DNA from: an uncultured Planctomycetaceae bacterium
GTDB taxonomy: Bacteria > Planctomycetota > Planctomycetia > Pirellulales > Pirellulaceae
NCBI GenBank assembly: GCA_937967665.1
Contig: CALBSZ010000696.1
Location: 194-64,193 of the forward strand
Direction: 5' to 3'
DNA length: 64,000 nt
This document shows positions 5,561 through 34,507 of the stretch, piece by piece (within the stretch, counting starts at the first letter, position 1; every line of letters starts with the position of its first letter). Both the position numbers and the translations under genes were made by a program. The notes beneath the pieces were generated by a model. The model saw only the letters and a program-made list of their open reading frames with translations, searched no databases and was not told the origin of the DNA.

Positions 5561-5650
5561 TTGCAGCCCACTCACTGCTCTTCGTAATCCGACAGAAAGC
5601 CTCGCCAGACCCGCGAGGCCGCGTTCGAAAACTCGCGAGAATACCAGCAG

Positions 5651-7558: not shown

Positions 7559-7589
7559 GGAATGCTCCTTCTGTTGTTGTGCTGTCCGC

Positions 7590-8099
7590 TCAGCACGAGT
7601 GAATCGTTCTTGCAAAAAAAAGGGGAACCGCCAAGCGGGGCAGAAGCCTAGCGGCTCGGGCACCTCTGCGAACAGAGACGTCGGAAGTTAAACTTTCAGC
7701 CGATGATCGGTTGCGGTGTTTGATCGTCCCCTTATCCTCCAGCCGCTTCGTTACTTCCGCTGTCAAGCACCGAGAACTTGATGGGGCGGATGATGCGCCG
7801 GCATAGGTTTCTCTCGGTTCTCTGACGTGCGCGACGACCAATGCCGCATCGATGTCACTTGCCCGCGCGGTTGCGTACAGCAGGCGCGCCCAAGCAGCCT
7901 CGGAGAAGTCGCTGGGATACGCGTAGCAAGAGTTGGTGCCGAGACCTTTGCGGTTTCGAACCAATGGCCAGATTTCGGCAGCATCCCTGACAATCGGATT
8001 TCGGATCGCAATTGCAGTGGTGTGGCCGGAAACATCCGTATTGTGTATCTGTGACGTCACGGTTTCGTGTGGGGCGATCTCGAATGAGATGGCGGCCAA
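7590..8099 (-). pseudogene. Possible decayed GNAT (EctA-like diaminobutyrate acetyltransferase) fragment
   Basis: Only residues ~28-62 of the 169-aa ORF (AIRNPIVRDAAEIWPLVRNRKGLGTNSCYAY) resemble the EctA N-terminus (IRKPT..D....I..LV.....LD.NS.YAY). The rest has no family character and overlaps the slyD-like leader. Confidence 0.25.
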
Positions 8100-19625: not shown

Positions 19626-21218
19626 TTACTCTTCCAAAACAATTCTTTGATTTGCTGCCACGTTGGTTCGGGTGATGCGTTTTCCGTTGGGGAAGCGCAC
19701 GGCCAGGTCCACCGTGTCGTGCTGGGCAAGTCCGAAATGGCAAACCGCCTCCTGGCCGCTGGCATAGCCGTAGCCGATCGTGAGTTCCTGGAAGCCCAGC
19801 AGCGATGGTTCGTCCGTCAACTGTCCGGCGGGGTAGACGCGGATCTGTGAGCCGATCCCCTGCCGGTTGAACGATCGCCCGCGAACGGCCACTTGCAGCC
19901 AGCCCCGTTCCGGAGTACTGGCGTTCCGGAGCAGTCGGGTATGATTGCCGCTGAACCAGTTAATCAGGCACAGATCCACCCGGCCGTCGCGATCGAAATC
20001 GGCCGAGGGTCCCGCGGGGAAATAGACCACTTCGCCCGAGGGTGTCGCCGGCGCGGCGAACCGCGGCAGGCCGTTGTGCAGGCCCAGGTTGCGATAGACC
20101 AGCGGCGTGATCGTGCCATCGTTTCCCAGCCAGGCCGTGGACAGGTAGATGTCGACCCAGCCGTCGTTGTCGAAATCCTGCAATTCGACATGCGGCGACT
20201 TGTTGGACAGTTTCGCCGGCAGGCCCACGGCCGCCGTCACGTCGCGAAACACGGGAAAGCCGTCTTCGATTCCTTCATTCAAGTAGACGCGATTGCGAGG
20301 CTCATGATGATGGATGCTCAGGACCAGATCCAAGCGACCGTCGCGATTCAAATCGGCAAAGTGGGCGCCGCAGGGCCAGTCTTCGCCGTCCACGGGATCC
20401 CAGCGAAATACATCGTTCACAGCGGCGGATTCAACATACTTGCCATCGCGAGTGCTGAAAAACAGGCGGTTGCTGTGCCCAACGAAGAAATCAGGACGGG
20501 TGTCGTCATTCAAATCGGCCACGGCCAGGCCCAGGCCAAAGACATCGTCCGGCAGTCCGACCTGCGTGCTCGCGTCGGAGAAACGGAGATCGCCATCGTT
20601 ATGGAACAAAACCGAGCGGGGATTTTTGGTAAAGCGGTCCTCCACAACGAACAGGTCCAGCAGTCCGTCCTGGTCGTAGTCGAAGACGCCGATGTTCCGA
20701 GCCGTGCCCAGCGAGTTGGGGCAGGCACCCGACTCCGAGGAAATGTCGACAAGCATTCCGCCGTCGTTGCGGAACAGGTTGGAATAACGAAGCTGGGCAT
20801 CATGCTGCGGGCCCGAGTCCCGTTTCGTTCTCCCTTTGCAATTGTTGGCCACGTACAGTTCCGGCAAACCATCGTTATTCAGATCGGCGAAGACCGCGCC
20901 ACTGGTCCGGCCATAGAATTGCACACCGGGCATCTTCGCCAGGGTGAAGACGCCGTTGCCATCGTTAAGGAACAGGCAATTCTTCAGCGGTCCCGGCGCC
21001 GGCAGGTACTCTTCGTCCGGCCGATCGGCGAACCCGCCCACATAGAGGTCCACATCGCCGTCGCTATCGACATCTCCCCAGGCGCCACCGTGTCCCATCA
21101 TGCCCGCCAGCGGTTGTCTTACCCCGGCAGACTCGGTCACGTCCTCAAAAACGATCTGAGCGATCGCGACATGGTTCAGCAGCACGTAAACCAGCGAAAA
21201 CGTTATCGTTCGCAGCAT
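19626..21218 (-). CDS. CRTAC1-family protein (FG-GAP/VCBS repeats + ASPIC/UnbV C-terminal domain)
   Basis: Repeated D.D.DG..D(L/I) FG-GAP-type loops (GDVDSDGDVDLYVGG, ADLNNDGLPELYV, FDYDQDGLLDLFV and others). The C-terminus is WLQVAVRG...GIGSQIRVY...GYASGQE...HFGL (UnbV/ASPIC pattern). Confidence 0.85.
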   Translation of the reverse strand: MLRTITFSLVYVLLNHVAIAQIVFEDVTESAGVRQPLAGMMGHGGAWGDVDSDGDVDLYVGGFADRPDEEYLPAPGPLKNCLFLNDGNGVFTLAKMPGVQFYGRTSGAVFADLNNDGLPELYVANNCKGRTKRDSGPQHDAQLRYSNLFRNDGGMLVDISSESGACPNSLGTARNIGVFDYDQDGLLDLFVVEDRFTKNPRSVLFHNDGDLRFSDASTQVGLPDDVFGLGLAVADLNDDTRPDFFVGHSNRLFFSTRDGKYVESAAVNDVFRWDPVDGEDWPCGAHFADLNRDGRLDLVLSIHHHEPRNRVYLNEGIEDGFPVFRDVTAAVGLPAKLSNKSPHVELQDFDNDGWVDIYLSTAWLGNDGTITPLVYRNLGLHNGLPRFAAPATPSGEVVYFPAGPSADFDRDGRVDLCLINWFSGNHTRLLRNASTPERGWLQVAVRGRSFNRQGIGSQIRVYPAGQLTDEPSLLGFQELTIGYGYASGQEAVCHFGLAQHDTVDLAVRFPNGKRITRTNVAANQRIVLEE

Positions 21219-21536: not shown

Positions 21537-22739
21537 CTATCTGGATGATTCGGCTTCGAGGCATTCCGCGGCGGTGATGCAGCCATCGCCATTCAGATCG
21601 CAAGTGGCGAACTCGGCCGCTTTCGCGTCGCTCCAGATCGCGGCGTACTCCGACATCATTACCTGGCCGTCGGCGTTGGCGTCCACTCGCAGGAACCAAT
21701 CCGGCAGTCCCTTGGGTAAGCGTTCGGCCGGTGTCAGGAAGCGGTAGCTCTTCCTATCGCTAGACGAAGAACGCGCGTCGTTATCACGGGACCTGTAGCG
21801 AGAACCGGAACGCGAGGAGGTGTTCGAACGACGCGTGTCCGACGTGGACGCAGCGCTTGACGAACCGCTCTTACCGTAGTTGGACAGTCGCGCGGTGAGT
21901 TCGTCGAGCGTCAGGATGCCGTCTCCGTTGGCGTCGGAGTTGCGAGAATAGCCGCGCATTTTTTGCCACTCGTCTTTTTCGAGTACTCCGTTCTTGTTGG
22001 CATCGTACTGCCGCAGCAGCCCTTCCGCGTAACGTCGCACGCGGCTGCTGTCGCCGGATGAGGAACTGCTGGAACCGGACTGCCGGCCGAACCCCGACGG
22101 GGACTTCGATGACGGCGAGGACGAAGGCTTTTGCGATCCCCAGCGCTGAGCCACACGTTCACAGAACTCGACGCGCGACAGGATCCCATCATGGTTCAAA
22201 TCCGATTCCGTCGGCGGCGGACTGGACCAGCGCACTCCATTCCATTCCTCCTGGTCCAGTTGCCCGTTCTTGTTCTTGTCGTAGCGATAGAGGATGCGGT
22301 CGACATACTCGATCACACGCTTTTCGTAACGTTGCTCAATCGGCCGCGTCGATGCCAGCGGGCTGTCCGGTAACACGTCGAATCCAAACGGCTTCGGCCG
22401 GTCGTCGGGTTCGCCAAAGCCGGGCACGAGCGGCTCGGACTGCGATCGCGTGCCACGGGAAGAACGCTCCGTGCTGGCAGACGATTCGCGTGAACGTGAA
22501 TCGGATCGCAAGGCTGCGTAGACGTCCTTGAGCTTGACAGGCTGGCTGAGATCCAGTCCAGCCTCCTGCGCCTTCCGTGTTAAGAATGGGCGAACGCGAT
22601 CGGTGATTTCGCCCGGCTGCAGCAGGCCGTCCTCGTTTTCGTCCAGCCGGCGGAGCATTTCCTTGGCATCGAACGACTGGGCAGGGGCCAGCGCTCCCAC
22701 ACCTGTCAATAGAAGAAAAACAAAAAGTCGCACCTTCAT
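21537..22739 (-). CDS. Secreted multi-EF-hand calcium-binding protein
   Basis: Signal MKVRLFVFLLLTGVGALAPAQS (start at 22739 preferred to 22817). It has seven canonical 12-residue loops: DENEDGLLQPGE, DKNKNGQLDQEE, DLNHDGILSRVE, DANKNGVLEKDE, DANGDGILTLDE, DANADGQVMMSE, DLNGDGCITAAE. Confidence 0.85.
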   Translation of the reverse strand: MKVRLFVFLLLTGVGALAPAQSFDAKEMLRRLDENEDGLLQPGEITDRVRPFLTRKAQEAGLDLSQPVKLKDVYAALRSDSRSRESSASTERSSRGTRSQSEPLVPGFGEPDDRPKPFGFDVLPDSPLASTRPIEQRYEKRVIEYVDRILYRYDKNKNGQLDQEEWNGVRWSSPPPTESDLNHDGILSRVEFCERVAQRWGSQKPSSSPSSKSPSGFGRQSGSSSSSSGDSSRVRRYAEGLLRQYDANKNGVLEKDEWQKMRGYSRNSDANGDGILTLDELTARLSNYGKSGSSSAASTSDTRRSNTSSRSGSRYRSRDNDARSSSSDRKSYRFLTPAERLPKGLPDWFLRVDANADGQVMMSEYAAIWSDAKAAEFATCDLNGDGCITAAECLEAESSR

Positions 22740-22967
22740 GCCGGCACCTTCGCTCGAGTATGCGTCCTTCTTATTGTACCGCAAGTGCTTTGAGAATAAA
22801 ATGTTGTGTTCCGCCACGCCTAAAAGATTTTCGCCAGCGAAACAATCCGGACTCGAACGGGTTAATACAGACTGAGCTCATGCCGATCGACAGCTTGCTG
22901 GATAAGGCCGCGTGAAGCCGCTGTGTAAGTCGAAACAATTCATCCTTGCTATCCGGAGTAGAAAACT

Positions 22968-23810: not shown

Positions 23811-25430
23811 ATGGAAGCAGGCGATATTTTACTCCGTCGAGGACTTCTCGACAGCGATCAACTCAAACGGTCACGTACGGCAAATGGCGAAGAAGGAACG
23901 TTAGTCGACGCGGCGGTTCGCCTGGGATTCTGCCAGGAAGCGGACGCGCTGCGCGCCGTCGGAGATGAAATCGGCATCGACTTCGTGGACCTCAACGAGG
24001 CGGAGGTCGACCTGACTCTGCTGGCGGGGTTTCCTCAAAAGCTGATCTATCGCGAATCCCTCTTTCCGATCCGGCGAAATAACGGCCAGCTGGTGGTGGC
24101 CACTTGCGATCCGTTTGATCTGTACCCCTTGGACGAAGTGAGTGCGGCCACGGGGCTGTCGGTCCTGCCGGTGCTGGCCGAACGGCACGAAATCGCCAAG
24201 CTTATCAAAAAGCATCTCGGCGTCGGCGGTGAAACGATCGACGGCTTGATGGAACAGACCAAGGACGACGACCTGCAGCTGATCGGCGATATCGAAACGG
24301 ACGACTCGGAACTGTCCGAGATGGCGCAGGAGGCGTCCGTCATTCGGCTCGTGAACGAAATCCTGCTGGAAGCCATCGAGTCGCGGGCTAGCGATGTGCA
24401 CATCGAATCGCAGCCCACCGGACTCACCGTCCGCTACCGGATTGACGGGATGCTGCATCCTCAACCGGTGCCGCCCGAGATTCGCCGCTTTGAATCGGCC
24501 ATCGTCAGCCGCTTGAAAATCATGGCCCGCTTGAACATCGCCGAGAAGCGGCTGCCGCAAGACGGCCGCATGAAACTGAAAGTCGGCGGTCGCGAAATCG
24601 ATGTCCGCGTCTCGGTCATTCCCATGATTCACGGCGAGGGAATCGTGCTCCGTATCCTGGACAAGGGGAGCATGAACTTCGACTTGAAACAGCTGGGCAT
24701 GGCTCCGGACACGTACCAGATCTACCGTGAATTGATCGAAATGCCCCACGGAATTGTGCTGGTTACCGGGCCCACCGGGTCGGGTAAGACAACGACCTTG
24801 TATAGTTCCCTGCTGGAAATCAAGAGCGATTCCAACAAGATCATCACTACCGAGGATCCCGTGGAATACCAGTTGGCCGGGATCAATCAGATTCAGGTTC
24901 ATCACCAGATCGGCTTGACCTTCGCCCATTCGTTGCGAAGCATCCTGCGACACGATCCCGATATCGTTCTGGTCGGTGAAATTCGAGACTACGAAACGGC
25001 CGAAAACGCCATTCAAGCCTCCCTGACGGGACACCTGGTATTCAGTACGCTGCACACCAACGATGCGGCCGGAGCGTACACGCGTTTGGTGGACATGGGG
25101 GTGGAACCGTTCCTGGTAGCCAGCACGGTCGAAGCCGTGATGGCGCAGCGGCTGGTCCGTCGTCTGTGCAAACACTGCCGCGTTCCCTACACCCCCGGCG
25201 ATCAGGATTTACCGCAAGACTTCCCGCTTAACGAACTGACCGGCGACATCTACCGCAGTGCTGGTTGCCGTCAGTGCCGCGGTGTCGGTTATCAGGGCCG
25301 TGTCGGTATTTACGAGCTGCTGGTCACGTGCGATGAAGTGCGTCAATTGGCCCATGACAGCGAAAGTAGTTGGAAAATCAAGCAGACTGCTGTGCATAAT
25401 GGAATGCAGACCCTGCGACACGACGGCTAG
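23811..25430 (+). CDS. gspE: Type II secretion / type IV pilus assembly ATPase (GspE/PilB family); ORF ends at an in-frame TAG, conserved C-terminus continues to 25511
   Basis: N-terminal T2SSE_N-like domain, Walker A GPTGSGKTTT, Asp box, Walker B IVLVGEIRD, His box, and a CxxC...CxxC tetracysteine. After TAG (25428-30) the same frame reads RKVLEGVISVEEVLRVTKGDRIIDMK*. Confidence 0.9.
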   Translation: MEAGDILLRRGLLDSDQLKRSRTANGEEGTLVDAAVRLGFCQEADALRAVGDEIGIDFVDLNEAEVDLTLLAGFPQKLIYRESLFPIRRNNGQLVVATCDPFDLYPLDEVSAATGLSVLPVLAERHEIAKLIKKHLGVGGETIDGLMEQTKDDDLQLIGDIETDDSELSEMAQEASVIRLVNEILLEAIESRASDVHIESQPTGLTVRYRIDGMLHPQPVPPEIRRFESAIVSRLKIMARLNIAEKRLPQDGRMKLKVGGREIDVRVSVIPMIHGEGIVLRILDKGSMNFDLKQLGMAPDTYQIYRELIEMPHGIVLVTGPTGSGKTTTLYSSLLEIKSDSNKIITTEDPVEYQLAGINQIQVHHQIGLTFAHSLRSILRHDPDIVLVGEIRDYETAENAIQASLTGHLVFSTLHTNDAAGAYTRLVDMGVEPFLVASTVEAVMAQRLVRRLCKHCRVPYTPGDQDLPQDFPLNELTGDIYRSAGCRQCRGVGYQGRVGIYELLVTCDEVRQLAHDSESSWKIKQTAVHNGMQTLRHDG

Positions 25431-25632
25431 CGCAAAGTGCTGGAAGGCGTGATTTCGGTGGAAGAGGTACTGCGCGTGACCAAGGGTGACCGCATCATCG
25501 ACATGAAATAGCCGCTTTCGGGGGCCCACAAATTCACCCACGATTTCAACGCGTCTGGACCGAAAACGTGCCCGATCGAGACCATATCGAATAGAACAAC
25601 TGCCACCGCCGTACGACATCCCTCGACAACCC

Positions 25633-26832
25633 ATGCCTGATTTCGCCTACATCGCGCGCAACACAACCGGCCAGAAGGTGAGTGGTCGCGTATCGGCCGG
25701 CAGCGAGCGGGAAGTGGTGGCGATCCTGTCGGGGCAAGCTCTCTTTCCCGTCCCTGTGACCGAAGAAAAGCGTGCGCGGCGGATCGGGGGACGACGCGTC
25801 AGCGGCAATTTGATGGCTGCCACTTACGGCCAACTGGCCGCGCTGCTCCGTAGCGGCGTCGCGCTCCTCCGCAGCCTGAACGTGCTTCGCGAACAGACCT
25901 CGAACGAGCGCCTGAAGGAAGTGTTGGACGACGTCCATCATCGTGTGGAAGAGGGATCGACGCTGGCGGACGCCATGGCACGCCATCCACGCGTCTTCGC
26001 CGAGATGGCTGTCAGTATGATTCGGGCCGGCGGCGAGGGCGGGTTTCTGGAAGATGCCTTGGATCGGGTGGCTCAGTTTACCGAAGAGCAAGAAGACCTG
26101 AAGAGCCGCACGGTCGGCGCGCTGGCCTACCCGATCATCCTCATGACCATCGGCTCGACAGTCGTGTTTGGCCTGGTCGTGTTCTTTGTGCCGAAATTCG
26201 CGGCCATGTTTGACCGCTTGCGGCAGCGCGGGCAACTTCCCGTCCTGACCGATTGGTTGTTGTGGTTTAGCGATACCATGCGGGACTGGGGCCTGTACTT
26301 GCTGCTGGCGCTGGTGACCGTATTGTTTCTGCTGCGCACGCGGCTGGCATCAGAAAACGGCCGCCGTTGGCGCGATCGGGTGGAACGCCGCATCCCCAGG
26401 GCGGGTAATATCTTTACGAATCTGGCCGTCGCCCGTTTTTGCCGGGTCCTGGGGACACTGCTCAAGAATGGCGTGCCGATTTTGAAAGCCCTGGAGATCA
26501 GCCGGGAAGCCGCCGGGAACCGGATTCTGTCCGAGGCGGTGGGGCAGGCCTCGGAGAATATCACCGCCGGCCAGTCACTGGCGGAGCCCCTGGCCAGTTG
26601 CAAGTACTTCCCCAAAACGGTCGTCGAAATGATCGCGGTTGCGGAGGAGTCCAACACGCTGGATCGGGTGCTGGTCGATATTTCAGACGGACTGGAACGC
26701 CGCACCACAAGAAGACTCGACTTGATGGTCCGTTTGCTGGAACCATTGATGCTGGTGATCCTGGCAACGGTCGTGTTGCTGGTGGTCATCGCACTTTTGC
26801 TACCTGTAATTAAGATGAGCAGTTCGATTTAA
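25633..26832 (+). CDS. gspF: Type II secretion system platform protein GspF/PilC
   Basis: 399 aa. It has two repeated T2SSF halves (ATYGQLAALLRSGVALLRSL... and VARFCRVLGTLLKNGVPILKAL...) and three hydrophobic segments. Confidence 0.9.
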   Translation: MPDFAYIARNTTGQKVSGRVSAGSEREVVAILSGQALFPVPVTEEKRARRIGGRRVSGNLMAATYGQLAALLRSGVALLRSLNVLREQTSNERLKEVLDDVHHRVEEGSTLADAMARHPRVFAEMAVSMIRAGGEGGFLEDALDRVAQFTEEQEDLKSRTVGALAYPIILMTIGSTVVFGLVVFFVPKFAAMFDRLRQRGQLPVLTDWLLWFSDTMRDWGLYLLLALVTVLFLLRTRLASENGRRWRDRVERRIPRAGNIFTNLAVARFCRVLGTLLKNGVPILKALEISREAAGNRILSEAVGQASENITAGQSLAEPLASCKYFPKTVVEMIAVAEESNTLDRVLVDISDGLERRTTRRLDLMVRLLEPLMLVILATVVLLVVIALLLPVIKMSSSI

Positions 26833-26941
26833 ATCAATAGTGAAGCCGTGGCCGCACACTGGCTGTCGCGATCCGGGAACGGAGTCGAGGCGACGCTGCC
26901 GGGAAACCGCACGGCCTGACTCAAGACAAGGAGATGAGGAA

Positions 26942-27358
26942 ATGAACCGAAAAGTGTCACGCCGTCGGCGGCAAGGATTTACTCTGCTTGAAGTGCTCTT
27001 GGTCCTGGCGATCCTGGTGATCCTGGGATCGATGGTCGGCGTCTACTTCGTCGGCATGCAGGACCGCGGCTACGCGGATGCCGCGAAGACGCAAATGGGA
27101 TTGTTTGAACAGCAAATGAAATTCTTCCGCATGGACGTCGGCCGCTATCCGTCGAACCTGGAAGACCTGCGCAAGGCGCCCGCGGATCTCGCCAACCCGG
27201 AAAAGTGGAAAGGCCCGTACGCGGAGAAAGACCTTCCCCCGGATCCCTGGGGACGGCCTTATCAGCTGGAAGCGGACGGACAGTTCTATACCATCAAGTC
27301 GCTGGGCCCCGATATCAACGACGCCTCCGATGACATTACCGTGTCGAACAAGTCATGA
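26942..27358 (+). CDS. gspG: Major pseudopilin GspG
   Basis: Start at ATG 26942 with AGGAG upstream. Prepilin leader RRRRQG|FTLLEVLLVLAILVILG, then the GspG core (KTQMGLFEQQMKFFRMDVGRYPSNLEDL...WKGPY...PPDPWGRPYQ...SLGPD). Confidence 0.9.
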   Translation: MNRKVSRRRRQGFTLLEVLLVLAILVILGSMVGVYFVGMQDRGYADAAKTQMGLFEQQMKFFRMDVGRYPSNLEDLRKAPADLANPEKWKGPYAEKDLPPDPWGRPYQLEADGQFYTIKSLGPDINDASDDITVSNKS

Positions 27359-27960
27359 CCGCACGCCGCGCCTTATCGCTGTTGGAACTGCTGCTGGTGC
27401 TGGCCCTGCTGGTCGTCGTAGCGGCGCTGGTCCTGCCGGCCCTGGCCAACACGATGGAAAATCAGCGGCTCAGCAAAGCGGGAGACGTCGTGCGGGCGTC
27501 GTGGAACAACGCCCGAGTGCGGGCCATGCGCAGCGGACGCATCCACATGTTCCGCTATAGTCCCGGCGGTAATCAGTACTACGTGGAACCATGGTTTGCG
27601 GTTACGGACGAGATCGAATCGAGCGATAAGTCGTGGGACACGTCGGCGGGAAACGCAGACCTGCAAGCGGCGTTGGCGGTGCGGGCGAATCCGGAGGAAT
27701 TGCCGGAAGGAGTCACGTTCGTGCAGGCGCAAACATTTTTCGATTCCCGGGACCAGGCCGCCACGGAAGACATCGCCGGAGCCGGACTGCCGCTGCCGGC
27801 AGCTCCCATTCTGTTTTATCCCGACGGCACCACGTCGACCACACGCCTGCTGTTGATGAACGAACAGGAATCCTACGTCGTCGTGCAGTTGCGCGGCCTG
27901 ACGGGAATCGCCAAAGTCAGTGAACTGCTCACTCCCGCGGAACTCATCGCATGGCGCTAA
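27355..27960 (+). CDS. Minor pseudopilin (GspH-like) with Ala at the -1 cleavage position
   Basis: The N-terminus MTARRA|LSLLELLLVLALLVVVAAL is a prepilin-like methylation segment with Glu+5. ATGA overlap with the gspG stop. Gene order supports the call. Confidence 0.65.
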   Translation: MTARRALSLLELLLVLALLVVVAALVLPALANTMENQRLSKAGDVVRASWNNARVRAMRSGRIHMFRYSPGGNQYYVEPWFAVTDEIESSDKSWDTSAGNADLQAALAVRANPEELPEGVTFVQAQTFFDSRDQAATEDIAGAGLPLPAAPILFYPDGTTSTTRLLLMNEQESYVVVQLRGLTGIAKVSELLTPAELIAWR

Positions 27961-28442
27961 AACACGAGCACGCTCCGACATTTCGCAGCGGCCGTCAACG
28001 CGCGGGCCTGTCGATCCTCGAGGTGATGTTGGCCCTGGCCATCCTGGGACTCGCTGTGACTGCCATTGGGCAGCTGATTCATATCGGGTCGATGAGTTCC
28101 GTCGCGGCCAGTCACGAGACCACGGCGCAGATGATCTGCGAGTCGAAGCTGGCGGAGATTACGTCGGGTATCCAGCCGACAACACCGCTCGCCAACGTCC
28201 CCTTCGAACTTGACGACGACTGGAACTACAGCATCCAACGCGAAGAGATTAACGACTTGGGCCTGGTGGCCATTCAAGTAACGGTGGAACAGCGAGCCGA
28301 TCGCTACGACCGCCCGGTAACGTTCTCACTGATTCGCTGGGTCAATGAAAACGATCTGCCGACCATGGAGGAGGTGCCGGCGGAGGACGGCGGCAGCGAG
28401 GACGCGACTCGTGGAAACACAACGGGCGAGGCCGCGTCATGA
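27951..28442 (+). CDS. Minor pseudopilin (GspI-like)
   Basis: RQRAG|LSILEVMLALAILGLAV prepilin-type N-terminus, small size (163 aa), and a 10-nt overlap with the previous gene. Confidence 0.65.
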   Translation: MALKHEHAPTFRSGRQRAGLSILEVMLALAILGLAVTAIGQLIHIGSMSSVAASHETTAQMICESKLAEITSGIQPTTPLANVPFELDDDWNYSIQREEINDLGLVAIQVTVEQRADRYDRPVTFSLIRWVNENDLPTMEEVPAEDGGSEDATRGNTTGEAAS

Positions 28443-29455
28443 CACGAATCCCCCGGAAACCAAACGCCGTCCGCCGGATGCCTCGCAACGGTTTTTCGCT
28501 GCTGGAAGTGTTACTTGCCCTGGGCCTGTCCGTCGTGGTCTTGGGCCTGATCGCCGCGGCCGTGGACAACACGCTGCGAATGTTGGACGAACGCCGCACG
28601 AACGTCGAGAAGGCGCAGTTGGCCCGCGCGGTCTTGAGGCAGATTGCCAGCGACCTGCGTAGCTCCGTCCAGTATGAACCAGTGGATCTGGAAGGCATTG
28701 AAAGCATGTCGGCGACCGAGGCGCTGACCGGCGTCGATCCGGCAACGCTCCAATCGGCCGGCGCGGCGGCGGAGATCGATTTCGGGTCCGTGGCCGAGGA
28801 AGCGGATGAGCAGTTGGCCGGGATCGCCAGTACGCTTTCTCCCGCGACGATCCCGGGACTTTACGGCAACCAGTTTGAATTGCAGGTCGACGTCTCGCGA
28901 CTGCCCAGGCTGGACGAATACGAAGTGTTCTTGCGAATCGATCAACCACTGGCCATCGCGCAGATTCCCAGCGACGTCAAGACGGTGGCCTACTATCTGC
29001 AGGCGACTCCCGATGACGTGCTCGATCCGCTCGCCGCGGACGTCGCGGAAGACACTTCCGCGACGGCGCCGCGCGGGCTGGTGCGGCGCGAATTGGATCG
29101 GGCCGTCACGACCTGGGCGATGAACAATGGCAATCTGGAATCCCTCCAGAATTCGGCGGACCTGCTGGCGCCCGAAGTCACCGCGATCGAATTCCGCTAC
29201 TTCGATGGCCAACAGTGGCTGCTGCAATGGGATTCGGAAGTCGAGGGCGGGCTGCCGATTGCCGTGGAGATTGCGCTCTCGATCGCTCCCGATGATCCGC
29301 TCAACGCTCCGATTCCGACGACCTTGCTGGGCACTTCCATCGCGGGCGTGTTTGGGGACAACGTCTTTCGCATGGTCGTACAGTTGCCGGTGGGAAAACG
29401 GCAGCCTGACGAGTCCGCGAACGGTTCCACCGGTTTGGAGGAGCTGGGGCTATGA
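28439..29455 (+). CDS. Minor pseudopilin (GspJ-like)
   Basis: PRNG|FSLLEVLLALGLSVVVLGL prepilin-type N-terminus, 338 aa, ATGA overlap. Confidence 0.65.
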   Translation: MTRIPRKPNAVRRMPRNGFSLLEVLLALGLSVVVLGLIAAAVDNTLRMLDERRTNVEKAQLARAVLRQIASDLRSSVQYEPVDLEGIESMSATEALTGVDPATLQSAGAAAEIDFGSVAEEADEQLAGIASTLSPATIPGLYGNQFELQVDVSRLPRLDEYEVFLRIDQPLAIAQIPSDVKTVAYYLQATPDDVLDPLAADVAEDTSATAPRGLVRRELDRAVTTWAMNNGNLESLQNSADLLAPEVTAIEFRYFDGQQWLLQWDSEVEGGLPIAVEIALSIAPDDPLNAPIPTTLLGTSIAGVFGDNVFRMVVQLPVGKRQPDESANGSTGLEELGL

Positions 29456-30990
29456 CACGTTGTCGACGCGGAGTAGTTCTGATCATCGTGCTGGTGGTGG
29501 TGGTGGTCCTGTCGCTGGCGGCCTACACCTTCAGCGATTTGATGCTGACGCACAACGAGGCCAGTCAGTTGAACGGCCGCAGCCTGCAGGCTCGCGAAGT
29601 CGTGGCTTCGGGAGCGGAATGGGTGCGGACCTTTCTGATGCTGGACGACGAAACGATTATCGAAGCCGGCGGCATCTACAACAATCCACAGCAGTTTCAA
29701 GCGATTCCCGTTGTTCAGGATATTGAAGAGGATTTTCGCGCGAACTTCACGCTGGTGGCGCCCGCACTGGACGACGAAGGAAACCTGGCCGGCGTGCGCT
29801 ACGGTTTGCAGGACGAATCAACCCGCTTGAACGTGAACGCGCTGCTGGCGCTCGAGGACCAGCAAACGGGGGCGGGACGGCAATTGCTGCTGGCCCTGCC
29901 GGGAATGACCGAAGACGTCGCCGATGCCATCCTGGATTGGCTGGACGAAGACGACGACCCGCGTGACTACGGCGCCGAAGCCGAATACTACAGTACGATG
30001 CAGCCACCATACGGTCCCAAGAACGGACCGCTCGACACCGTCGAAGAACTGCTACTCGTCCGCGGCGTGACGCCTCGCCTGCTGTTCGGCATGGACGTCA
30101 ATCGCAACGGCATGATCGACAACTATGAATTGCAGTCGACCGAGTTGGCGGAAGACGCCACGACGACCACGGAGTTCACGGAATTCGGCTGGGCCAGTCT
30201 CCTGACGCTGCACGGCGCCGAATGGAACGCAAATTCGCTGGGAGAACCGCGGATCGATCTGAATGACGAAGACTTGAAACAACTGTACGCCGACCTGACC
30301 GCCGTCTTCGACGACGAATGGGCGAAGTTTATTGTCGCCTACCGGCAAGGGGGCGCTTACACCGGAAGCGATCCCGTCGATTCATCGGCCGGCCGCGAGC
30401 TCAATTTCGACTTGCCGGCTCAGTCCAACATCACGCAGGTGCTGGAATTGATCGGCGCGAAGACGCAAGTCACGTTTGCCGGCGCCAGCAGCCCGACGGT
30501 CCTGGCATCGCCGTTTGACACCGGCATTGTGGCAATGAACGTCTACTTGCCGATCCTGTTGAACCAGGTGTCCGTGAATCCCGCGCCGACCATTCCAGGC
30601 CGGATCAATATCAATCAAGCGCCTCGCGTGATGCTGGAAGGAATCCCGGGCATGACGACGGAACTGCTGGATACCATCTTGAAATCTCGCCCGGTGGAAC
30701 CGGTCGTGGAAAACCTCAACTTTGGGTACGAGACCTGGTTGCTGACGGAGGGGCTGGTAACGCTGGAACAGATGCGCGCGCTGTCGCCGTTCGTCTGTGC
30801 TGGTGGCGACGTGTATCGGGCTCAGATCGTCGGCTATTACGAAGGTGGAATGGCCTCGTCCCGCGCGGAAATCATTTTCGCTGCTACCGGGACCGCGCCT
30901 CGCGTATTATCCTGGAGAGATGTCAGCCATCTGGGGCGCGGCTACGCGATTGAGACATTGGGCGTCCAGATGGTGGGCGAGGAAATGTAG
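29452..30990 (+). CDS. GspK-like minor pseudopilin
   Basis: RRG|VVLIIVLVVVVVLSLAAY has no Glu+5, as in GspK. The LLLALPGMTEDVADAILDWLDEDDD and EQMRALSPFV regions resemble the GspK helix-hairpin-helix-like domains. 512 aa, ATGA overlap. Confidence 0.7.
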   Translation: MTRCRRGVVLIIVLVVVVVLSLAAYTFSDLMLTHNEASQLNGRSLQAREVVASGAEWVRTFLMLDDETIIEAGGIYNNPQQFQAIPVVQDIEEDFRANFTLVAPALDDEGNLAGVRYGLQDESTRLNVNALLALEDQQTGAGRQLLLALPGMTEDVADAILDWLDEDDDPRDYGAEAEYYSTMQPPYGPKNGPLDTVEELLLVRGVTPRLLFGMDVNRNGMIDNYELQSTELAEDATTTTEFTEFGWASLLTLHGAEWNANSLGEPRIDLNDEDLKQLYADLTAVFDDEWAKFIVAYRQGGAYTGSDPVDSSAGRELNFDLPAQSNITQVLELIGAKTQVTFAGASSPTVLASPFDTGIVAMNVYLPILLNQVSVNPAPTIPGRININQAPRVMLEGIPGMTTELLDTILKSRPVEPVVENLNFGYETWLLTEGLVTLEQMRALSPFVCAGGDVYRAQIVGYYEGGMASSRAEIIFAATGTAPRVLSWRDVSHLGRGYAIETLGVQMVGEEM

Positions 30991-30991
30991 T

Positions 30992-32449
30992 ATGGCACGA
31001 ATCCTGGCAATCGAATGGGACGCCCGCGAGGCGCGTGCCGTGGTGGCCCGCACACGGGCCGACGACGTGACCGTGGAAGACGCGTTCGTCATCGACGTGA
31101 CTCCCCGCGCCGGCCAGGAGACGTTGAGCGACGAGGAAGTGGGCGCGCGCATCTTGTCGGCCTTGTCCGCGCGCAATATCAGCAAGCTGGAGACGCACGT
31201 CTCCGTCGGCCGCGCGAATATCGAATTGCGGTTCCTCAACGTCCCGCCGGCGCCCGAGGAAGAATTGCCCGGGATGGTCCGGTTGCAGGCCGGACGCCAC
31301 TTTTCCAATCTAGGTGCCGACTCGACCCTTGATTTCGTCCCTGTCGGGCAGGCCGAAGATGGCAGCCTGAATCTGCTCGCCGCCGCCACCTCGGCCGAAT
31401 TCCTGCGCGATGTCCAACAGACGTGCTCGGCCGCGCAGCTGACTCCGCAGAGTATCGTGCTGCGGCCGTTCGCGACGGCGTCGTTGTGGCGGCGCAGCAA
31501 CGACGTAACACCATGCACGTTGATGATCGACGTGCTGGGAAATGAAGCCGATCTGACCGTGTTGGTGGACGGCAATGTGGTCGTCACACGCACCGTGCGA
31601 TTGCCAGACGACCCCGCGGCGATTGCAGCAGCGCTGATTGGCGAAGTCAAACGGACCTCGGCCGCCGCTCAGAATCAGACGTCCGGACGCAAGGTCGACG
31701 GGATCGTGCTGCTGGGGGACGTCAGTGAATTTGGCGACGCCCAGGAAACCCTTTCACAAGCGCTCGAAATCCCGGTTGCGTTCTTCAATCCGTTTACCAA
31801 TCTGAAATTCGCCGAAGGTTGGCGAGCGCCCGGTCGCAGCGGACGGTTTGCCCCGCTGCTCGGCATGATTCTGGACGAATCCGCCGGCGAAAGGCATCTG
31901 GTCGATTTCCTGAATCCACGACGCAAGCCCGAAGCCGCCAGTTACAATCGGCGGCAGGCCATGGTCGGTGGCGGCGTCGCGGCGCTCGCCCTGCTGGTGC
32001 TCGTGATCTTGTGGCTGCAATTCCGCGCGCTGGATCAACGCATCGAGCAACTCACACAGGAATCCGCCAGCTGGGACCCGCTGGTCAAGAAGGCACAGCA
32101 GCTGACCAGGGACGTCCACGAAATCGAGCAGTTCCAGGATGCCAACGTACGCTGGCTGGACGAACTGCGTCTGATGTCCGAAGTGGCGCCTCCCGCCGAA
32201 GACATGATTGTCCGGCAATGGACGTCGGCGGCCAGGAAGGAGGGAGGCGGTGTGATCGCGATCGAAGGACAAGCCGAGGAGTTTTCGACCATCGAACAGC
32301 TCGAACGCGCTCTGCGGGATCCTCGTCATCAGGTGTTTGGTCGCGGTGGACGCGAAGACGAGAAAGCCGACGCTTATCGCTGGGTGTTCAATGAGGAGAT
32401 TGTTGTCAGTTCGTCGTCGTCGGCGGACGGGGCGGAGGAAGCGCCATGA
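30992..32449 (+). CDS. GspL/PilM-PilN-like assembly-platform protein (cytoplasmic actin-like domain + TM + periplasmic domain)
   Basis: I use the start MARILAIEWDAREARAVV, 1 nt after the gspK stop. PilM-like N-terminal half, a single TM (VGGGVAALALLVLVILWL), then a coiled-coil and a ferredoxin-like tail. Confidence 0.65.
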   Translation: MARILAIEWDAREARAVVARTRADDVTVEDAFVIDVTPRAGQETLSDEEVGARILSALSARNISKLETHVSVGRANIELRFLNVPPAPEEELPGMVRLQAGRHFSNLGADSTLDFVPVGQAEDGSLNLLAAATSAEFLRDVQQTCSAAQLTPQSIVLRPFATASLWRRSNDVTPCTLMIDVLGNEADLTVLVDGNVVVTRTVRLPDDPAAIAAALIGEVKRTSAAAQNQTSGRKVDGIVLLGDVSEFGDAQETLSQALEIPVAFFNPFTNLKFAEGWRAPGRSGRFAPLLGMILDESAGERHLVDFLNPRRKPEAASYNRRQAMVGGGVAALALLVLVILWLQFRALDQRIEQLTQESASWDPLVKKAQQLTRDVHEIEQFQDANVRWLDELRLMSEVAPPAEDMIVRQWTSAARKEGGGVIAIEGQAEEFSTIEQLERALRDPRHQVFGRGGREDEKADAYRWVFNEEIVVSSSSSADGAEEAP

Positions 32450-33645
32450 TCCACCGTGAACGTATCCTCTTGTCCCTGGTAGTGGGACCCGGCATCGCCG
32501 CGATCGCCTTTGTGGGCGTGGCCAAAGTTCGCAAAGGGCTGTCTGATCGGCGAGACCGCGTGGCATTGCTGCAAAAAGAGATCGCCGACAAGGAGTTCGA
32601 GGTCGCGTTGGGCGAACGCAAAGCACTGGAACTGATTGAGTTGGAAGCGCGGTCACTGCCCCCCAGCCGCGAGCAAGCAATGTCGGTGTACCAGGCCTGG
32701 CTGCTGGACCTGGTCAAGAATGCCGGTTTGCAGGATGTGGACGTCAAACTGCAATCGAACCGCTCGGTCCGTGATGTCTACACGATGTTCACGTTTGCCG
32801 TCACGGGAGATGGTGATCTGCCCAGGCTGACCGAATTCCTGCACCGTTTTTACGAAGCCGATTTCCTGCATCGCATCGGGCGCCTGAATCTGAAACCGAT
32901 TCGCGATCGCCGCGAACTGTCGCTGTCCATGTCAGTCGACGCGCTGGCCTTGCCGGGATCCCCGCACCTCAAGACCCTGCCGACCGACCTGCAGCCCCCC
33001 CGGGATCTGCTGACACTCGAGGAATACCGGACCGCAATCCTCGGCCGGAATCTTTTCGGGCCGCCCAACAACAAGCCGCGCTTGACCATCTCCGGATCAC
33101 AGCGTGCCTACGTCGGACGCTCGCTGACGGTTTCCCCTCAGGCCAGCGACCCGGATAAACTGGATTCGCTGCGCTACAGTGTCGCTGAAAAAGAACTTCC
33201 CAGCGGCATGCGATTCGACGCCCAGACCGGCAGCCTGCAGTGGACACCGCGGGAAACCGGCGAGTACTCCGTCACGTTGATCGTTAGCGACGATGGGCTG
33301 CCGAGCAAGTCCGATAGCCAACTTGTCAAGATCAGCGTCAGCGAACCGCCCCCGCCTCCCACGCCGCGCCCGACCCCGCCGGCGAAACCAAGTTTTGACC
33401 CGGCACAGTACACGTTCCTGACTTCGGTCGTCGAGATCAACGGGGAGCCGCAGATCTGGTTGATCGACCGTACCACGGGGACACGATACGAATTGTCTGT
33501 GGGCGATTCCTTCGACATTGGCACCTGGAAAGGTACGGTGGTCCGTATCGGGACGAATAGTGCCGAGGTCGAATCCTCGGGCCACGTCTACCTGATCTCG
33601 ATCGGCGAACCGCTCACCAGCGGCGAAGAACTCGACAGCGTCTAA
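32446..33645 (+). CDS. GspM/PilO-like protein fused to a cadherin-like Ig domain, a Pro-rich linker and a PilP/GspC-HR-like C-terminal beta domain
   Basis: N-terminal TM plus coiled-coil plus a PilO-like block (AWLLDLVKNAGLQDVDVKL...FTFAVTGDGDLPRLTEFLHRFY). Ig-like SLTVSPQASDPD...LQWTPRETGEYSVTLIVSDDG. Linker PPPPPTPRPTPPAKP. C-terminus YTFLTSVVEINGEPQIWLIDRTTGTRYELSVGDSF..GTVVRIGTNSAEVESSGHVYLISIG. Confidence 0.6.
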   Translation: MIHRERILLSLVVGPGIAAIAFVGVAKVRKGLSDRRDRVALLQKEIADKEFEVALGERKALELIELEARSLPPSREQAMSVYQAWLLDLVKNAGLQDVDVKLQSNRSVRDVYTMFTFAVTGDGDLPRLTEFLHRFYEADFLHRIGRLNLKPIRDRRELSLSMSVDALALPGSPHLKTLPTDLQPPRDLLTLEEYRTAILGRNLFGPPNNKPRLTISGSQRAYVGRSLTVSPQASDPDKLDSLRYSVAEKELPSGMRFDAQTGSLQWTPRETGEYSVTLIVSDDGLPSKSDSQLVKISVSEPPPPPTPRPTPPAKPSFDPAQYTFLTSVVEINGEPQIWLIDRTTGTRYELSVGDSFDIGTWKGTVVRIGTNSAEVESSGHVYLISIGEPLTSGEELDSV

Positions 33646-33676
33646 AACGCGCCGCAGATGGGACATGGTCTGTAGC

Positions 33677-33803
33677 CCCGCGGCTCCGCCCGCGGGATTC
33701 CGCGAACGGAGTCGCGGAACTACGACAACGGGACCCGCGCGGAGTTCGACACTCGTTCCCGGGCTCCCGCCCGGGGACGCACTATCTCCGAGGCTCCGCC
33801 TCG
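33677..33803. repeat. Cluster of four short GC-rich hairpins sharing a CTCCG-type loop
   Basis: 33677-96 CCCGCGG-CTCCGC-CCGCGGG. 33698-719 TTCCGCGA-ACGGAG-TCGCGGAA (loop in reverse orientation). 33756-77 TTCCCGGG-CTCCCG-CCCGGGGA (8-bp stem, one G-U wobble pair). 33789-803 CGAGG-CTCCG-CCTCG. All are directly downstream of the T2SS-like operon. Confidence 0.8.
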
Positions 33804-33976
33804 CACCCTTGCTGGTCCAACTGCTACAGCTCGCCCCCAAAAAAAAGCGACCGGCTCACAGCGTCTCCTCGCTGCCTGCCACAAGTCATCTGCATTGTTG
33901 CAACGCGAAACCTGAATGATTACGTTAGTACAAAAATCCGAAAGTCCCGCTTACATCCTACTTATGGAGACGTCAC

Positions 33977-34507
33977 ATGAATGCCCGCATTGCCACTGTC
34001 ATTCTGGTCCTGCTTCTTGGTACTGCCGTCCGTGCGGAAGACAGCGAGTTCGCTCGCCAGACGATCGACATAGGTGTCGTGGTGAGCGATATCGAGAAGG
34101 CCGTGGACTTCTACACTAACGCCATCGGTTTCAAGGAACTGGACGGCTTCAAGGTGCCGGCCGACTTCGCCACCGATTCGGGGCTGACGCAAAACCAGCC
34201 GCTGGACATCCGAGTGCTCGCTTTGGGCGAAGAGGAATCGGCAACCCGCTTGAAACTGATGCAGCTTCCGGGGGTGAAGAGCAAAAAGTCCGATAACACG
34301 GTCATCCACTCCCAACTCGGTGTCAGCTACATCACGATCTTTGTCACCGACACGAACGCTGCCCTGGCACGTCTGAAGAAAGCGGGTGTTGCAGTGGCTG
34401 CGAAAGGTCCGGTCGAGCTGCCGAAAGGCTTTCCCGCCGGCGTCTACTTGACCGTGGTCAAGGACCCCGACGGCAACATTGTCGAGCTGGTCGGCCCCAA
34501 GAAATAA
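33977..34507 (+). CDS. Secreted VOC-family (glyoxalase/bleomycin-resistance fold) protein
   Basis: Signal MNARIATVILVLLLGTAVRA. IDIGVVVSDIEKAVDFYTNAIGFKE and the C-terminal VKDPDGNIVELV are classic VOC beta-alpha-beta-beta-beta blocks. Confidence 0.8.
   Translation: MNARIATVILVLLLGTAVRAEDSEFARQTIDIGVVVSDIEKAVDFYTNAIGFKELDGFKVPADFATDSGLTQNQPLDIRVLALGEEESATRLKLMQLPGVKSKKSDNTVIHSQLGVSYITIFVTDTNAALARLKKAGVAVAAKGPVELPKGFPAGVYLTVVKDPDGNIVELVGPKK

What the first reader, a model, noticed from the sequence alone, without database searches (positions are those of the whole stretch)
32446..33645. Last operon gene fuses a GspM/PilO-like module, a cadherin-like Ig domain and a PilP/GspC-HR-like domain
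N-terminus: TM, coiled-coil and a PilO/GspM-like ferredoxin-type block.

Middle: SLTVSPQASDPDKLDSLRYSV...LQWTPRETGEYSVTLIVSDDGLPSKSDSQLVKISV, an Ig/cadherin-like domain.

Linker: PPPPPTPRPTPPAKP.

C-terminus: YTFLTSVVEINGEPQIWLIDRTTGTRYELSVGDSFDIGTWKGTVVRIGTNSAEVESSGHVYLISIG. This follows the PilP / GspC homology-region pattern (L.L.G.......A.I.....G....V.VGD.L....G.V..I....V.L...G....L).

In canonical systems that HR domain docks onto the secretin N0 domain. A single-chain M(O)-Ig-C(P) protein would be an unusual way to bridge the inner-membrane platform to a distant or unknown outer component.
Basis: inference. Interest (0 to 1): 0.6.

Follow-up and report, generated by a model that had tools for sequence, protein, structure and literature searches.

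The report
GspM fused to secretin-docking domain
The last gene of this planctomycete type II secretion-like operon encodes one protein that joins an inner-membrane GspM/PilO-type module, an Ig-like insert and a GspC/PilP-type beta domain, so it probably does the work of two separate proteins in linking the inner-membrane machine to its outer-membrane pore.

Summary
ORF 32446-33645 (399 aa) is real, conserved, and the last gene of a gspE-F-G-H-I-J-K-L operon.

- **N-terminal module:** the AlphaFold2 model (pLDDT 90) shows a TM helix, a long helix and an αββαββ domain. 43 of 52 one-Ig homologues and 42 of 48 short homologues hit NCBIfam GspM_XpsM, all below its cut-off.
- **Middle:** a He_PIG/cadherin-like Ig domain, then a proline-rich linker.
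- **C-terminal domain:** modelled alone (pLDDT 94), its only PDB fold matches with TM above 0.5 are ETEC GspC-HR (3OSS_C, TM 0.80/0.61) and Neisseria PilP.

The family is restricted to Planctomycetota. It comes with no insert (~295 aa), one Ig (~400 aa) or a longer insert (~560-630 aa). The gene always follows the gspL-like gene.

A 1100-1400-aa secretin lies directly downstream in about a third of loci and co-occurs 17/17 in a phylum sample. This genome's ortholog is on another contig. The genome has no recognisable separate GspC or PilP.

The protein is best read as a GspM-HR fusion (PilO-PilP-like) that couples the platform to the secretin. This is a new variant of a known kind, since PilO-PilP fusions have been noted before. 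Docking is inferred, and the partner secretins lack a detectable N0 domain.

The parts
32446..33645 (+). Whole ORF (399 aa plus stop): GspM-like module, Ig insert, proline-rich linker and HR/PilP-like domain
   Evidence: ORF list and translation. Homologues at 30-47% identity over the full length. AF2 model with pLDDT 90.4.
32464..32526 (+). Single N-in transmembrane helix (residues ~7-27, ILLSLVVGPGIAAIAFVGVAK), preceded by the basic stretch HRER
   Evidence: Read directly from the sequence. It forms part of helix 3-69 in the model. The topology is inferred from the positive-inside rule.
32527..32652 (+). Long periplasmic helix or coiled-coil stalk (residues ~28-69)
   Evidence: DSSP helix 3-69. 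Only coiled-coil proteins such as geminin match this stretch in PDB sequence searches.
32668..32949 (+). Ferredoxin-like αββαββ domain (residues 75-168), GspM/PilO type
   Evidence: DSSP gives H75-92, E96-108, E112-123, H125-137, E142-151, E158-168. NCBIfam NF040576 GspM_XpsM is hit by 43/52 one-Ig and 42/48 short homologues (best E 8.9e-10 and 2.1e-8). There are weak Pfam T2SSM_b and PilO hits. JGI names some short forms PilO.
33016..33060 (+). Conserved helix ending in the invariant motif RNLFG (residues 191-205); the insert begins immediately after it
   Evidence: Y194, I198, R201, N202, F204 and G205 are invariant across 21 sequences. The model shows a helix at 191-201. E. coli HofP (a PilP homologue) has RDPF in the equivalent place before its β domain. 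That comparison rests on one sequence and is a lead only.
33079..33342 (+). He_PIG / cadherin-like Ig domain (residues ~212-299), a clade-specific insert
   Evidence: Pfam He_PIG 7e-13. The family profile hits cadherin repeats in PDB down to 2e-25. Foldseek on the whole model returns cadherin, Rib and SraP Ig domains. The domain is absent from the ~295-aa homologues.
33346..33390 (+). Proline-rich linker PPPPPTPRPTPPAKP (residues 301-315)
   Evidence: Translation. This is the lowest-confidence stretch of the model (pLDDT 66-72).
33400..33633 (+). C-terminal β-sandwich (residues 319-396) with the GspC-HR / PilP fold
   Evidence: Domain-only AF2 model with pLDDT 94.4. Foldseek: 3OSS_C TM 0.80/0.61 and rmsd 2.1 Å; 2IVW and 4AV2_M TMq 0.52-0.55; nothing else above 0.40. 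BLASTP aligns it in register with the HR region of E. coli K-12 GspC (28% over 54 aa, E 0.18, not significant alone).
23811..32449 (+). Upstream operon: gspE (23811-25430), gspF (25633-26832), gspG (26840-27358), H-like (27355-27960), I-like (27951-28442), J-like (28439-29455), gspK (29452-30990), gspL/PilM-like (30797-32449; start uncertain)
   Evidence: Pfam and NCBIfam hits. The same gene order is found in all loci from other Planctomycetota long enough to show it.

Best explanation
The gene encodes the GspM-equivalent of a planctomycete T2SS-like (type IV filament superfamily) machine. Its periplasmic end carries the secretin-docking 'homology region' (HR) β-sandwich that other bacteria place on a separate protein, GspC in T2SS or PilP in type IVa pili.

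**Proposed mechanism.**
- The N-in TM helix, stalk helix and αββαββ domain pair with the GspL/PilM-like product of the preceding, translationally coupled gene. Together they form the inner-membrane assembly platform.
- The conserved helix-RNLFG segment, the cadherin-like Ig domain and the polyproline linker project the HR domain across the periplasm.
- The HR domain binds the N-terminal periplasmic domains of the system's own large secretin. In this genome that is the 1163-aa protein on contig C642.
- One polypeptide therefore fixes a 1:1 M:HR ratio and replaces a stand-alone GspC/PilP, which this genome does not detectably encode.

**Shown:** the ORF, the domain folds, the gene order, family-wide conservation, variation of the insert, and genomic linkage and co-occurrence with the secretin.

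**Inferred:** pairing with GspL, physical docking on the secretin, which secretin domain is contacted, and the role of the Ig insert (spacer or extension is the default reading).
For: **Fold of the C-terminal domain.** The only PDB matches with TM above 0.5 are GspC-HR and PilP.

**N-module.** It has αββαββ topology. GspM_XpsM is the one family hit consistently: 42/48 short forms and 43/52 one-Ig forms.

**Core architecture.** The short forms consist of N-module plus HR with no Ig, so the fusion itself is the conserved core.

**Synteny.** All 82 loci examined carry an M-like ORF. It directly follows a gspL-like ORF in all but three short loci that lack the upstream sequence, and a gspEFGHIJK set precedes it wherever the locus is long enough. 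A large secretin starts within 2.5 kb downstream on the same strand in 25 of 71 loci with enough sequence. This includes complete genomes and the same-family genome G190.

**Co-occurrence.** In a 301-genome phylum sample, the 17 genomes of families f1 and f2 that carry this gene are exactly the 17 that carry the secretin ortholog at E ≤ 1e-60.

**Own genome.**
- The secretin ortholog is C642:4304-7795(-), with phmmer E 1.9e-207 and five Secretin_N domains plus a Secretin domain.
- There is one copy of the M-HR family.
- There is no hit to Pfam T2SSC and only one sub-threshold PilP hit (E 0.17, another contig).

**Literature.** HR and PilP are structural homologues. HR binds the secretin through its first three strands. 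PilO-PilP fusions exist (PMC3169554). In this family the N-terminal strands of the domain (T.LTAV..V.G.PE.W) are among its better-conserved stretches.
Against: - No binding was tested, and no multimer prediction could be run.
- Sequence-level membership fails. P0001 itself hits no GspM, PilO, PilP or GspC model. The family's GspM_XpsM hits all lie below the 60-bit cut-off. Pfam T2SSC, HofP and PilO hits are isolated and weak.
- Foldseek E-values for the 88-residue domain are weak (0.35-0.5), so the case rests on TM-score and probability.
- The N-module fold was never compared with solved GspM or PilO structures on its own. The whole-model search was swamped by Ig hits.
- The partner secretins start with a Secretin_N-type domain. 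They show no N0 or STN hit at E ≤ 1, while E. coli GspD and HofQ controls do. The canonical HR-N0 contact therefore cannot simply be transferred.
- In this genome the secretin is unlinked, and gspE carries a premature stop according to an earlier follow-up, so the system may not be intact here.
- The Pfam PilP search rang in none of the 14 control genomes, so that negative result is weak.
- The genome's other seven or eight secretins must also have connectors that went undetected.
Confidence: 0.72

Rival explanations
1. The protein has the same architecture, but the machine is a type IV pilus-like fibre system and not a secretion system. The protein is then a PilO-PilP fusion of a pilus assembly platform, and the Ig insert relates to fibre biogenesis.
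For: - The gspL-like gene hits PilM_2, TIGR01175 pilM and the Akkermansia Amuc_1101 PilM-like family.
- JGI names some short forms PilO.
- PilO hits appear in one A3 member (E 0.007) and in L098.
- The known precedent for this fusion is in T4P.
- The secretin is far larger than a GspD.
Against: - The operon carries T2SS-type pseudopilins, including T2SSG (7.9e-20), GspK (T2SSK_1st 1.9e-21; NF037980 1.4e-27) and GspH/I/J-like genes.
- No retraction ATPase sits in the operon.
- The family-wide hit is to GspM_XpsM, not to PilO.
- This rival changes the output of the machine, not the bridging role of this protein.
Confidence: 0.2
2. The C-terminal β-sandwich has the HR/PilP fold but does not dock on the secretin. 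It binds another periplasmic partner such as the pseudopilus, cargo, peptidoglycan or GspL. In this reading the Ig domain is the functional ligand-binding part, a substitute for the PDZ or coiled-coil domain of GspC, and not a spacer.
For: - The partner secretins lack a detectable N0 domain.
- Partner secretin length does not track insert length: about 1054-1426 aa with short forms, 1163-1330 with one Ig, 1253-1353 with the longer insert.
- The cadherin-like domain keeps near-invariant acidic motifs, DPD..D and DDG.P.
Against: - Every characterised HR/PilP-fold domain named in the paper read here (GspC, PilP) binds a secretin (PMC3169554); GspB/OutB is added from the abstract of PMC9239104 listed and from my own knowledge.
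- Secretin adjacency and 17/17 co-occurrence are strong.
- The short forms lack the Ig entirely, so it cannot be essential to the core function.
Confidence: 0.12
3. The three-module ORF is an artefact: a misassembly, a frameshift joining two genes, or a chance ORF in GC-rich DNA.
For: - The source is a fragmented MAG (784 contigs).
- Many overlapping spurious ORFs occur in this GC-rich window.
Against: - The same full-length architecture is found in dozens of independent assemblies, including complete genomes.
- The model has high pLDDT throughout.
- Translational coupling to the upstream gene is conserved.
Confidence: 0.01

Closest known systems
PilO-PilP fusion proteins of type IVa pilus systems (for example Pseudomonas putida Q88CU9, noted in Korotkov et al. 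2011, PMC3169554)
   Same: One chain combines a PilO/GspM-type inner-membrane module with a PilP/GspC-HR-type β-sandwich. This implies 1:1 stoichiometry and a direct link from platform to secretin.
   Different: - That fusion sits in a T4P pilMNOPQ context, whereas this one sits in a gspEFGHIJKL operon with T2SS-type pseudopilins.
- No Ig insert or polyproline linker is described for it.
GspC of canonical T2SS (ETEC GspC HR domain, PDB 3OSS)
   Same: - The C-terminal domain has the same β-sandwich fold (TM 0.80 by target, rmsd 2.1 Å).
- It is anchored in the inner membrane by a single N-terminal TM helix.
- It is expected to link the platform to the secretin.
   Different: - GspC is a separate protein with its own TM helix and a C-terminal PDZ or coiled-coil domain, and it has no ferredoxin-like domain.
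- Here the HR is the last domain of the GspM-like protein.
- Pfam T2SSC does not recognise it.
- GspC's partner domain, N0, is not detectable in the cognate secretin.
GspM / XpsM (NCBIfam NF040576; Pfam T2SSM, T2SSM_b) and PilO
   Same: - It has an N-in TM helix, a helical stalk and an αββαββ periplasmic domain.
- The gene lies immediately after gspL.
- The family consistently gives sub-threshold hits to GspM_XpsM.
   Different: - It is about twice as long and carries roughly 230 extra residues (RNLFG helix, Ig, linker, HR).
- Scores lie below the curated cut-offs, and P0001 itself gives no hit.
PilP (Neisseria meningitidis, PDB 2IVW / 4AV2)
   Same: - It has the same β-sandwich fold (prob 0.91-0.94, TMq 0.52-0.55).
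- An R-(D/N)-x-F motif lies upstream of the domain, as in E. coli HofP.
   Different: - PilP is a lipoprotein that binds PilN/PilO non-covalently through its N-terminal tail.
- Here the link to the PilO/GspM-like module is covalent, and there is no lipobox.

Membership tests
GspM / XpsM (NF040576; PF04612 / PF10741) | Score above the curated HMM cut-off | tested here: not met
   P0001 gives no hit at E ≤ 1. The family does hit: 43/52 one-Ig and 42/48 short members, best E 8.9e-10 and 2.1e-8, all below the 60-bit cut-off. T2SSM_b gives 0.0021-0.017 in a few members.
GspM / XpsM (NF040576; PF04612 / PF10741) | Single N-in TM helix followed by a periplasmic helix and a ferredoxin-like αββαββ domain | tested here: met
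   AF2 DSSP gives H3-69, H75-92, E96-108, E112-123, H125-137, E142-151, E158-168, with pLDDT of 87 or more. That GspM (EpsM) and PilO have this topology comes from my own knowledge. No superposition on a solved structure was obtained.
GspM / XpsM (NF040576; PF04612 / PF10741) | Gene immediately downstream of gspL in a T2SS operon | tested here: met
   There is an ATGA overlap with the gspL-like ORF. An M-like ORF is found in all 82 loci examined, directly after a gspL-like ORF in all but three short loci that lack the upstream sequence.
GspC homology region / PilP core domain | Six- to seven-strand β-sandwich superposable on GspC-HR (3OSS) or PilP (2IVW) | tested here: met
   Foldseek gives 3OSS_C prob 1.00, TMt 0.80, TMq 0.61, rmsd 2.1 Å over 65 columns; 2IVW prob 0.94; 4AV2_M prob 0.91. 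All other hits have TMq of 0.40 or less. E-values are weak (0.35-0.5) because the domain is short.
GspC homology region / PilP core domain | Recognition by Pfam T2SSC (PF11356), PilP (PF04351) or NCBIfam GspC models | tested here: not met
   Hits are isolated and weak only: T2SSC E 0.058 (one member), HofP 0.063 (one member), GspC_delta 0.041 (two members). hmmsearch against PDB sequences finds no GspC or PilP.
GspC homology region / PilP core domain | Binds the N0 domain of the cognate secretin | not testable with these tools
   No multimer prediction or experiment was available. Indirect support comes from secretin adjacency in 25/71 loci and 17/17 co-occurrence. Against it, no N0 or STN domain is detectable in the partner secretins, while E. 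coli controls are positive.
He_PIG / cadherin-like Ig (PF05345) | Score above the Pfam gathering cut-off and an Ig-like β-sandwich fold | tested here: met
   49.3 bits against a cut-off of 24. Foldseek returns Rib, SraP and cadherin domains. The family profile hits cadherins at 2e-25.
PilO-PilP fusion (T4P) | PilO-type and PilP-type modules in one chain, encoded in a pilMNOPQ cluster | tested here: inconclusive
   The one-chain architecture is met. The context is gspEFGHIJKL with no pilN, so the cluster criterion is not met. Common origin with the Pseudomonas fusions was not tested.

The most novel reading that the evidence does not exclude
In Planctomycetia the T2SS-like machine has been rewired. 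There is no GspC. The HR domain rides on GspM with a clade-specific set of Ig spacers: none, one, or a longer insert. It docks on an over-long secretin that has no N0 domain, so it would use a new HR-to-N1-type (or cryptic N0) interface adapted to the unusual planctomycete envelope. The same layout might explain the two genes that lie between the PilM-like gene and the secretin in the Akkermansia Amuc_1098-1102 cluster.
Probability: 0.3. Interest if true: 0.6.

Novelty: new variant of a known kind. Interest (0 to 1): 0.45.

Why it matters
- **Missing component explained.** It explains how a widespread planctomycete T2SS-like system works without a recognisable GspC or PilP. It also assigns a role to a large family now annotated as hypothetical, 'cadherin repeat' or 'PilO' proteins.
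- **Stoichiometry.** A natural covalent M-HR fusion across a whole class supports the long-argued 1:1 GspM:GspC (PilO:PilP) stoichiometry of the assembly platform.
- **Natural deletion series.** The forms with no insert, one Ig and a longer insert give a ready-made series for asking how far the platform must reach to the secretin.
- **HR-secretin recognition.** The apparent lack of an N0 domain in the partner secretin makes the system a useful test of how general HR-N0 recognition is.
- **Limits.** The finding is incremental for secretion-system biology and is not a new principle.

Tried and rejected
- **Foldseek on the whole model** returned only Ig and cadherin hits, so it gave no information on the N- or C-modules.
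- **Sequence and profile searches against PDB chains** found no GspM, PilO, PilP or GspC for the full family, the C-domain alignment or the short-form alignment. They returned only designer β-propellers and geminin coiled coils, which are chance hits.
- **hhalign of the N- and C-module alignments against single E. coli K-12 sequences** (GspM, GspC, GspL, GspB, HofN, HofO, HofP) gave probabilities of 4% or less, no better than negative controls. Single-sequence templates are too weak for this.
- **Building a GspM reference profile** from the big protein database using E. coli GspM returned only close Escherichia relatives, so the search was wasted.
- **The search for related loci with the mixed alignment A1** failed because no stretch was conserved enough. 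A3 worked.
- **A profile search of the 1.84-billion representative library** with the full alignment was dominated by giant cadherin-repeat proteins. It was useful only for counting full-length family members.
- **Paralogues in the same genome:** none found.
- **Simple molecular ruler idea** (insert length tracking secretin length): not supported.
- **Intrinsic terminator after the gene:** the consensus scan found none.
- **Literature searches** for planctomycete T2SS, GspC or PilP, and for M-C fusions, found nothing specific beyond Korotkov 2011.
Full report
**1. The observation**

ORF 32446-33645 (+) encodes 399 aa. Its ATG overlaps the stop codon of the upstream ORF as ATGA.

Upstream on the same strand lie:
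- gspE (T2SSE 1.4e-131) and gspF (T2SSF 1.4e-60);
- gspG (T2SSG 7.9e-20) and three N_methyl pseudopilins with GspH-, GspI- and GspJ-like hits;
- gspK (T2SSK_1st 1.9e-21; NF037980 1.4e-27);
- a 550-aa GspL-position protein with PilM_2, pilM and Amuc_1101-family hits.

Downstream are unrelated genes: a glyoxalase, SelO on the opposite strand, and a sulfatase. The window holds no secretin, no GspC and no prepilin peptidase.

**2. Anatomy of the protein**

Pfam recognises only the middle domain: He_PIG, residues 216-289, 49.3 bits against a cut-off of 24.

An AlphaFold2 model built on 21 homologues has mean pLDDT 90.4. It shows:
- a continuous helix 3-69, which includes the hydrophobic stretch 7-27 after a basic N-terminus;
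- an αββαββ domain (H75-92, E96-108, E112-123, H125-137, E142-151, E158-168);
- a short conserved helix at 191-201;
- an Ig-type sandwich at 212-299;
- a low-confidence proline-rich linker at 301-315;
- a compact β domain at 319-396.

Foldseek on the whole model returned only cadherin, Rib and SraP Ig hits. I therefore modelled residues 312-399 separately on an alignment of C-terminal fragments, which gave pLDDT 94.4 and pTM 0.82.

Against the PDB, all E-values are weak, as expected for 88 residues. The only matches with TM above 0.5 are:
- the ETEC GspC homology region in complex with GspD (3OSS_C: prob 1.00, TM 0.80 by target and 0.61 by query, rmsd 2.1 Å over all 65 residues of the chain);
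- N. meningitidis PilP (2IVW, prob 0.94, TMq 0.55);
- N. meningitidis PilP (4AV2_M, prob 0.91, TMq 0.52).

Every other hit has TMq of 0.40 or less. GspC-HR and PilP are each other's closest structural homologues, and both bind secretins (PMC3169554). A BLASTP alignment with E. coli K-12 GspC falls in register on its HR region (28% over 54 residues). At E 0.18 it is not significant on its own.

**3. The N-terminal module**

P0001 itself matches no GspM or PilO model. Its family does:
- 42 of 48 short homologues hit NCBIfam NF040576 (T2SS_GspM_XpsM), best E 2.1e-8;
- 43 of 52 one-Ig homologues hit the same model, best E 8.9e-10.

No other family comes close in frequency. All scores are below the 60-bit curated cut-off.

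Scattered Pfam hits point the same way: T2SSM_b at 0.0021-0.017 and PilO at 0.007-0.032. JGI annotates several short forms as PilO. Taken with the αββαββ topology and the position directly after gspL, I read the module as a divergent GspM/PilO homologue.

**4. The family and its variants**

Homologues come in three classes.
- About 295-aa proteins have the N-module joined directly to the HR domain, with no Ig (P0015-P0021 and more than 240 others).
- About 400-aa proteins have one Ig, as here. More than 50 clusters at 50% identity have this form.
- About 560-630-aa proteins occur in complete genomes. They carry at least one He_PIG domain (two matched stretches in L099) plus roughly 150 further residues (L098, L099).

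The insert always sits between an invariant helix-RNLFG motif and the HR domain. E. coli HofP, a PilP homologue, has RDPF just before its β domain, which is a suggestive parallel.

A quick ML tree of the concatenated N and HR modules separates the three classes into clades. The one-Ig clade of 56 sequences has SH-aLRT 92. Six proteins with 46-50-aa inserts group with the short forms. The tree is a quick search with a midpoint root.

All 80 GTDB-species loci retrieved belong to Planctomycetota. They include Pirellulales, Thermoguttaceae, Planctomycetaceae and Schlesneria, among them a complete Schlesneria chromosome. In an even sample of 301 genomes from the phylum, 22 carry the family, and 17 of these belong to the two families of the window's own class. 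The window's genome has a single copy.

**5. Context and the missing outer component**

All 82 loci examined carry an M-like ORF. It directly follows a gspL-like ORF in all but three short loci that lack the upstream sequence, and gspEFGHIJK precedes it wherever the locus is long enough.

In 25 of 71 loci with at least 1.5 kb of downstream sequence, a 1100-1400-aa secretin ORF starts within 2.5 kb on the same strand. This holds for:
- the 39%-identical one-Ig homologue P0004;
- the complete genomes G070 and G173;
- G190, the sampled genome of the same family as the window.

This genome's ortholog of that secretin is on contig C642 at 4304-7795(-). It is 1163 aa, with phmmer E 1.9e-207 against the L016 secretin, while the next-best paralogue scores 3.4e-19. 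It carries five Secretin_N stretches plus the Secretin domain.

In the phylum sample, the 17 class-level genomes with the M-HR gene are exactly the 17 with a secretin ortholog at E ≤ 1e-60. The genome gives no hit to Pfam T2SSC and only one sub-threshold PilP hit (E 0.17, 15.7 bits, on another contig). The PilP search rang in none of the control genomes, so that negative is weak.

**6. Mechanism**

The best-supported reading is as follows. The protein is the GspM of this machine. It forms the platform with the GspL-like protein and carries the secretin-docking HR domain itself. It thereby replaces GspC or PilP and fixes a 1:1 M:HR ratio. Korotkov et al. inferred exactly this ratio from rare PilO-PilP fusions in T4P systems.

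In ETEC, the first three HR strands contact β1 and α1 of GspD-N0 by strand augmentation. In this family the equivalent N-terminal strands are among the better-conserved parts of the domain.

The Ig domain and the polyproline linker most simply act as an extension. This is weakly supported. Partner secretin length does not co-vary with insert length. The conserved acidic motifs of the Ig leave room for a binding role.

**7. An unresolved difference**

Ten partner secretins, including this genome's own, begin directly after the signal peptide with a Secretin_N-type domain. They show no type_II_gspD_N0 or STN hit at E ≤ 1 in the first 300-400 residues. E. coli GspD and HofQ controls hit those models at 3.9e-25 and 1.6e-9. 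The docking site is therefore either a cryptic N0 or a different domain. Docking itself remains an inference.

Two further points suggest the system may not be intact in this MAG:
- the secretin is unlinked here;
- an earlier follow-up of this scan found a premature stop near the end of gspE.

**8. Novelty**

The folds and the idea of a PilO-PilP fusion are known. What appears undescribed in the literature I could search is:
- a class-wide GspM-HR fusion in T2SS-like operons of Planctomycetia;
- its variable Ig inserts;
- its pairing with an over-long, apparently N0-less secretin.

I rate this a new variant of a known kind, of moderate interest.

Noticed in passing
G000 contig C642:4304-7795(-) (locus L097); also L016:4735-8727 and secretins in L025, L036, L037, L041, L043, L046, L047, L055: The operon-linked secretins are 1100-1400 aa with five Secretin_N stretches. 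They begin with a Secretin_N-type domain directly after the signal peptide. No N0 (PF21305) or STN (PF07660) hit appears at E ≤ 1, although E. coli GspD and HofQ controls hit these models strongly.
   Followed up: partly
window 30797-32449 (+): The GspL-position protein matches the NCBIfam Amuc_1101 family (Akkermansia PilM-like) at 2.2e-13. The Akkermansia cluster Amuc_1098 (secretin)-1099-1100-1101-1102 has two genes where planctomycetes have the single M-HR gene. Whether Amuc_1100/1099 correspond to the M and HR modules is an untested lead.
   Followed up: no
window 21537-22817 (-) and 19626-21218 (-); L015:1-249 (-); L097:1962-3149 (+): An EF-hand repeat protein lies divergently upstream of gspE both here and in a Thermoguttaceae genome. 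FG-GAP/ASPIC proteins flank both the operon in the window and the unlinked secretin on C642. This may be conserved accessory or cargo genes, or coincidence.
   Followed up: no
L098:9503-11398 (G070) and L099:9132-10823 (G173): Homologues of 564-632 aa in complete genomes carry at least one He_PIG domain (two matched stretches in L099) plus an additional ~150-residue segment of unknown fold between the ferredoxin-like domain and an NPF/SPF motif. The secretin is the very next gene.
   Followed up: partly
window 29452-30990 / 30797-32449: The longest gspL-like ORF (GTG at 30797) overlaps gspK by 194 nt.
   Followed up: no
whole genome G000: Eight or nine secretin-domain ORFs and at least 13 GspE/PilB-family ATPase ORFs with E below 1e-20 lie on different contigs. 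No Pfam-recognisable GspC or PilP is found anywhere. Connector proteins of the other systems may also be divergent or fused.
   Followed up: no
window 33645-34100: The simple scan finds no consensus intrinsic terminator after the last operon gene. Another first-stage note reports four GC-rich hairpins at 33677-33803.
   Followed up: partly
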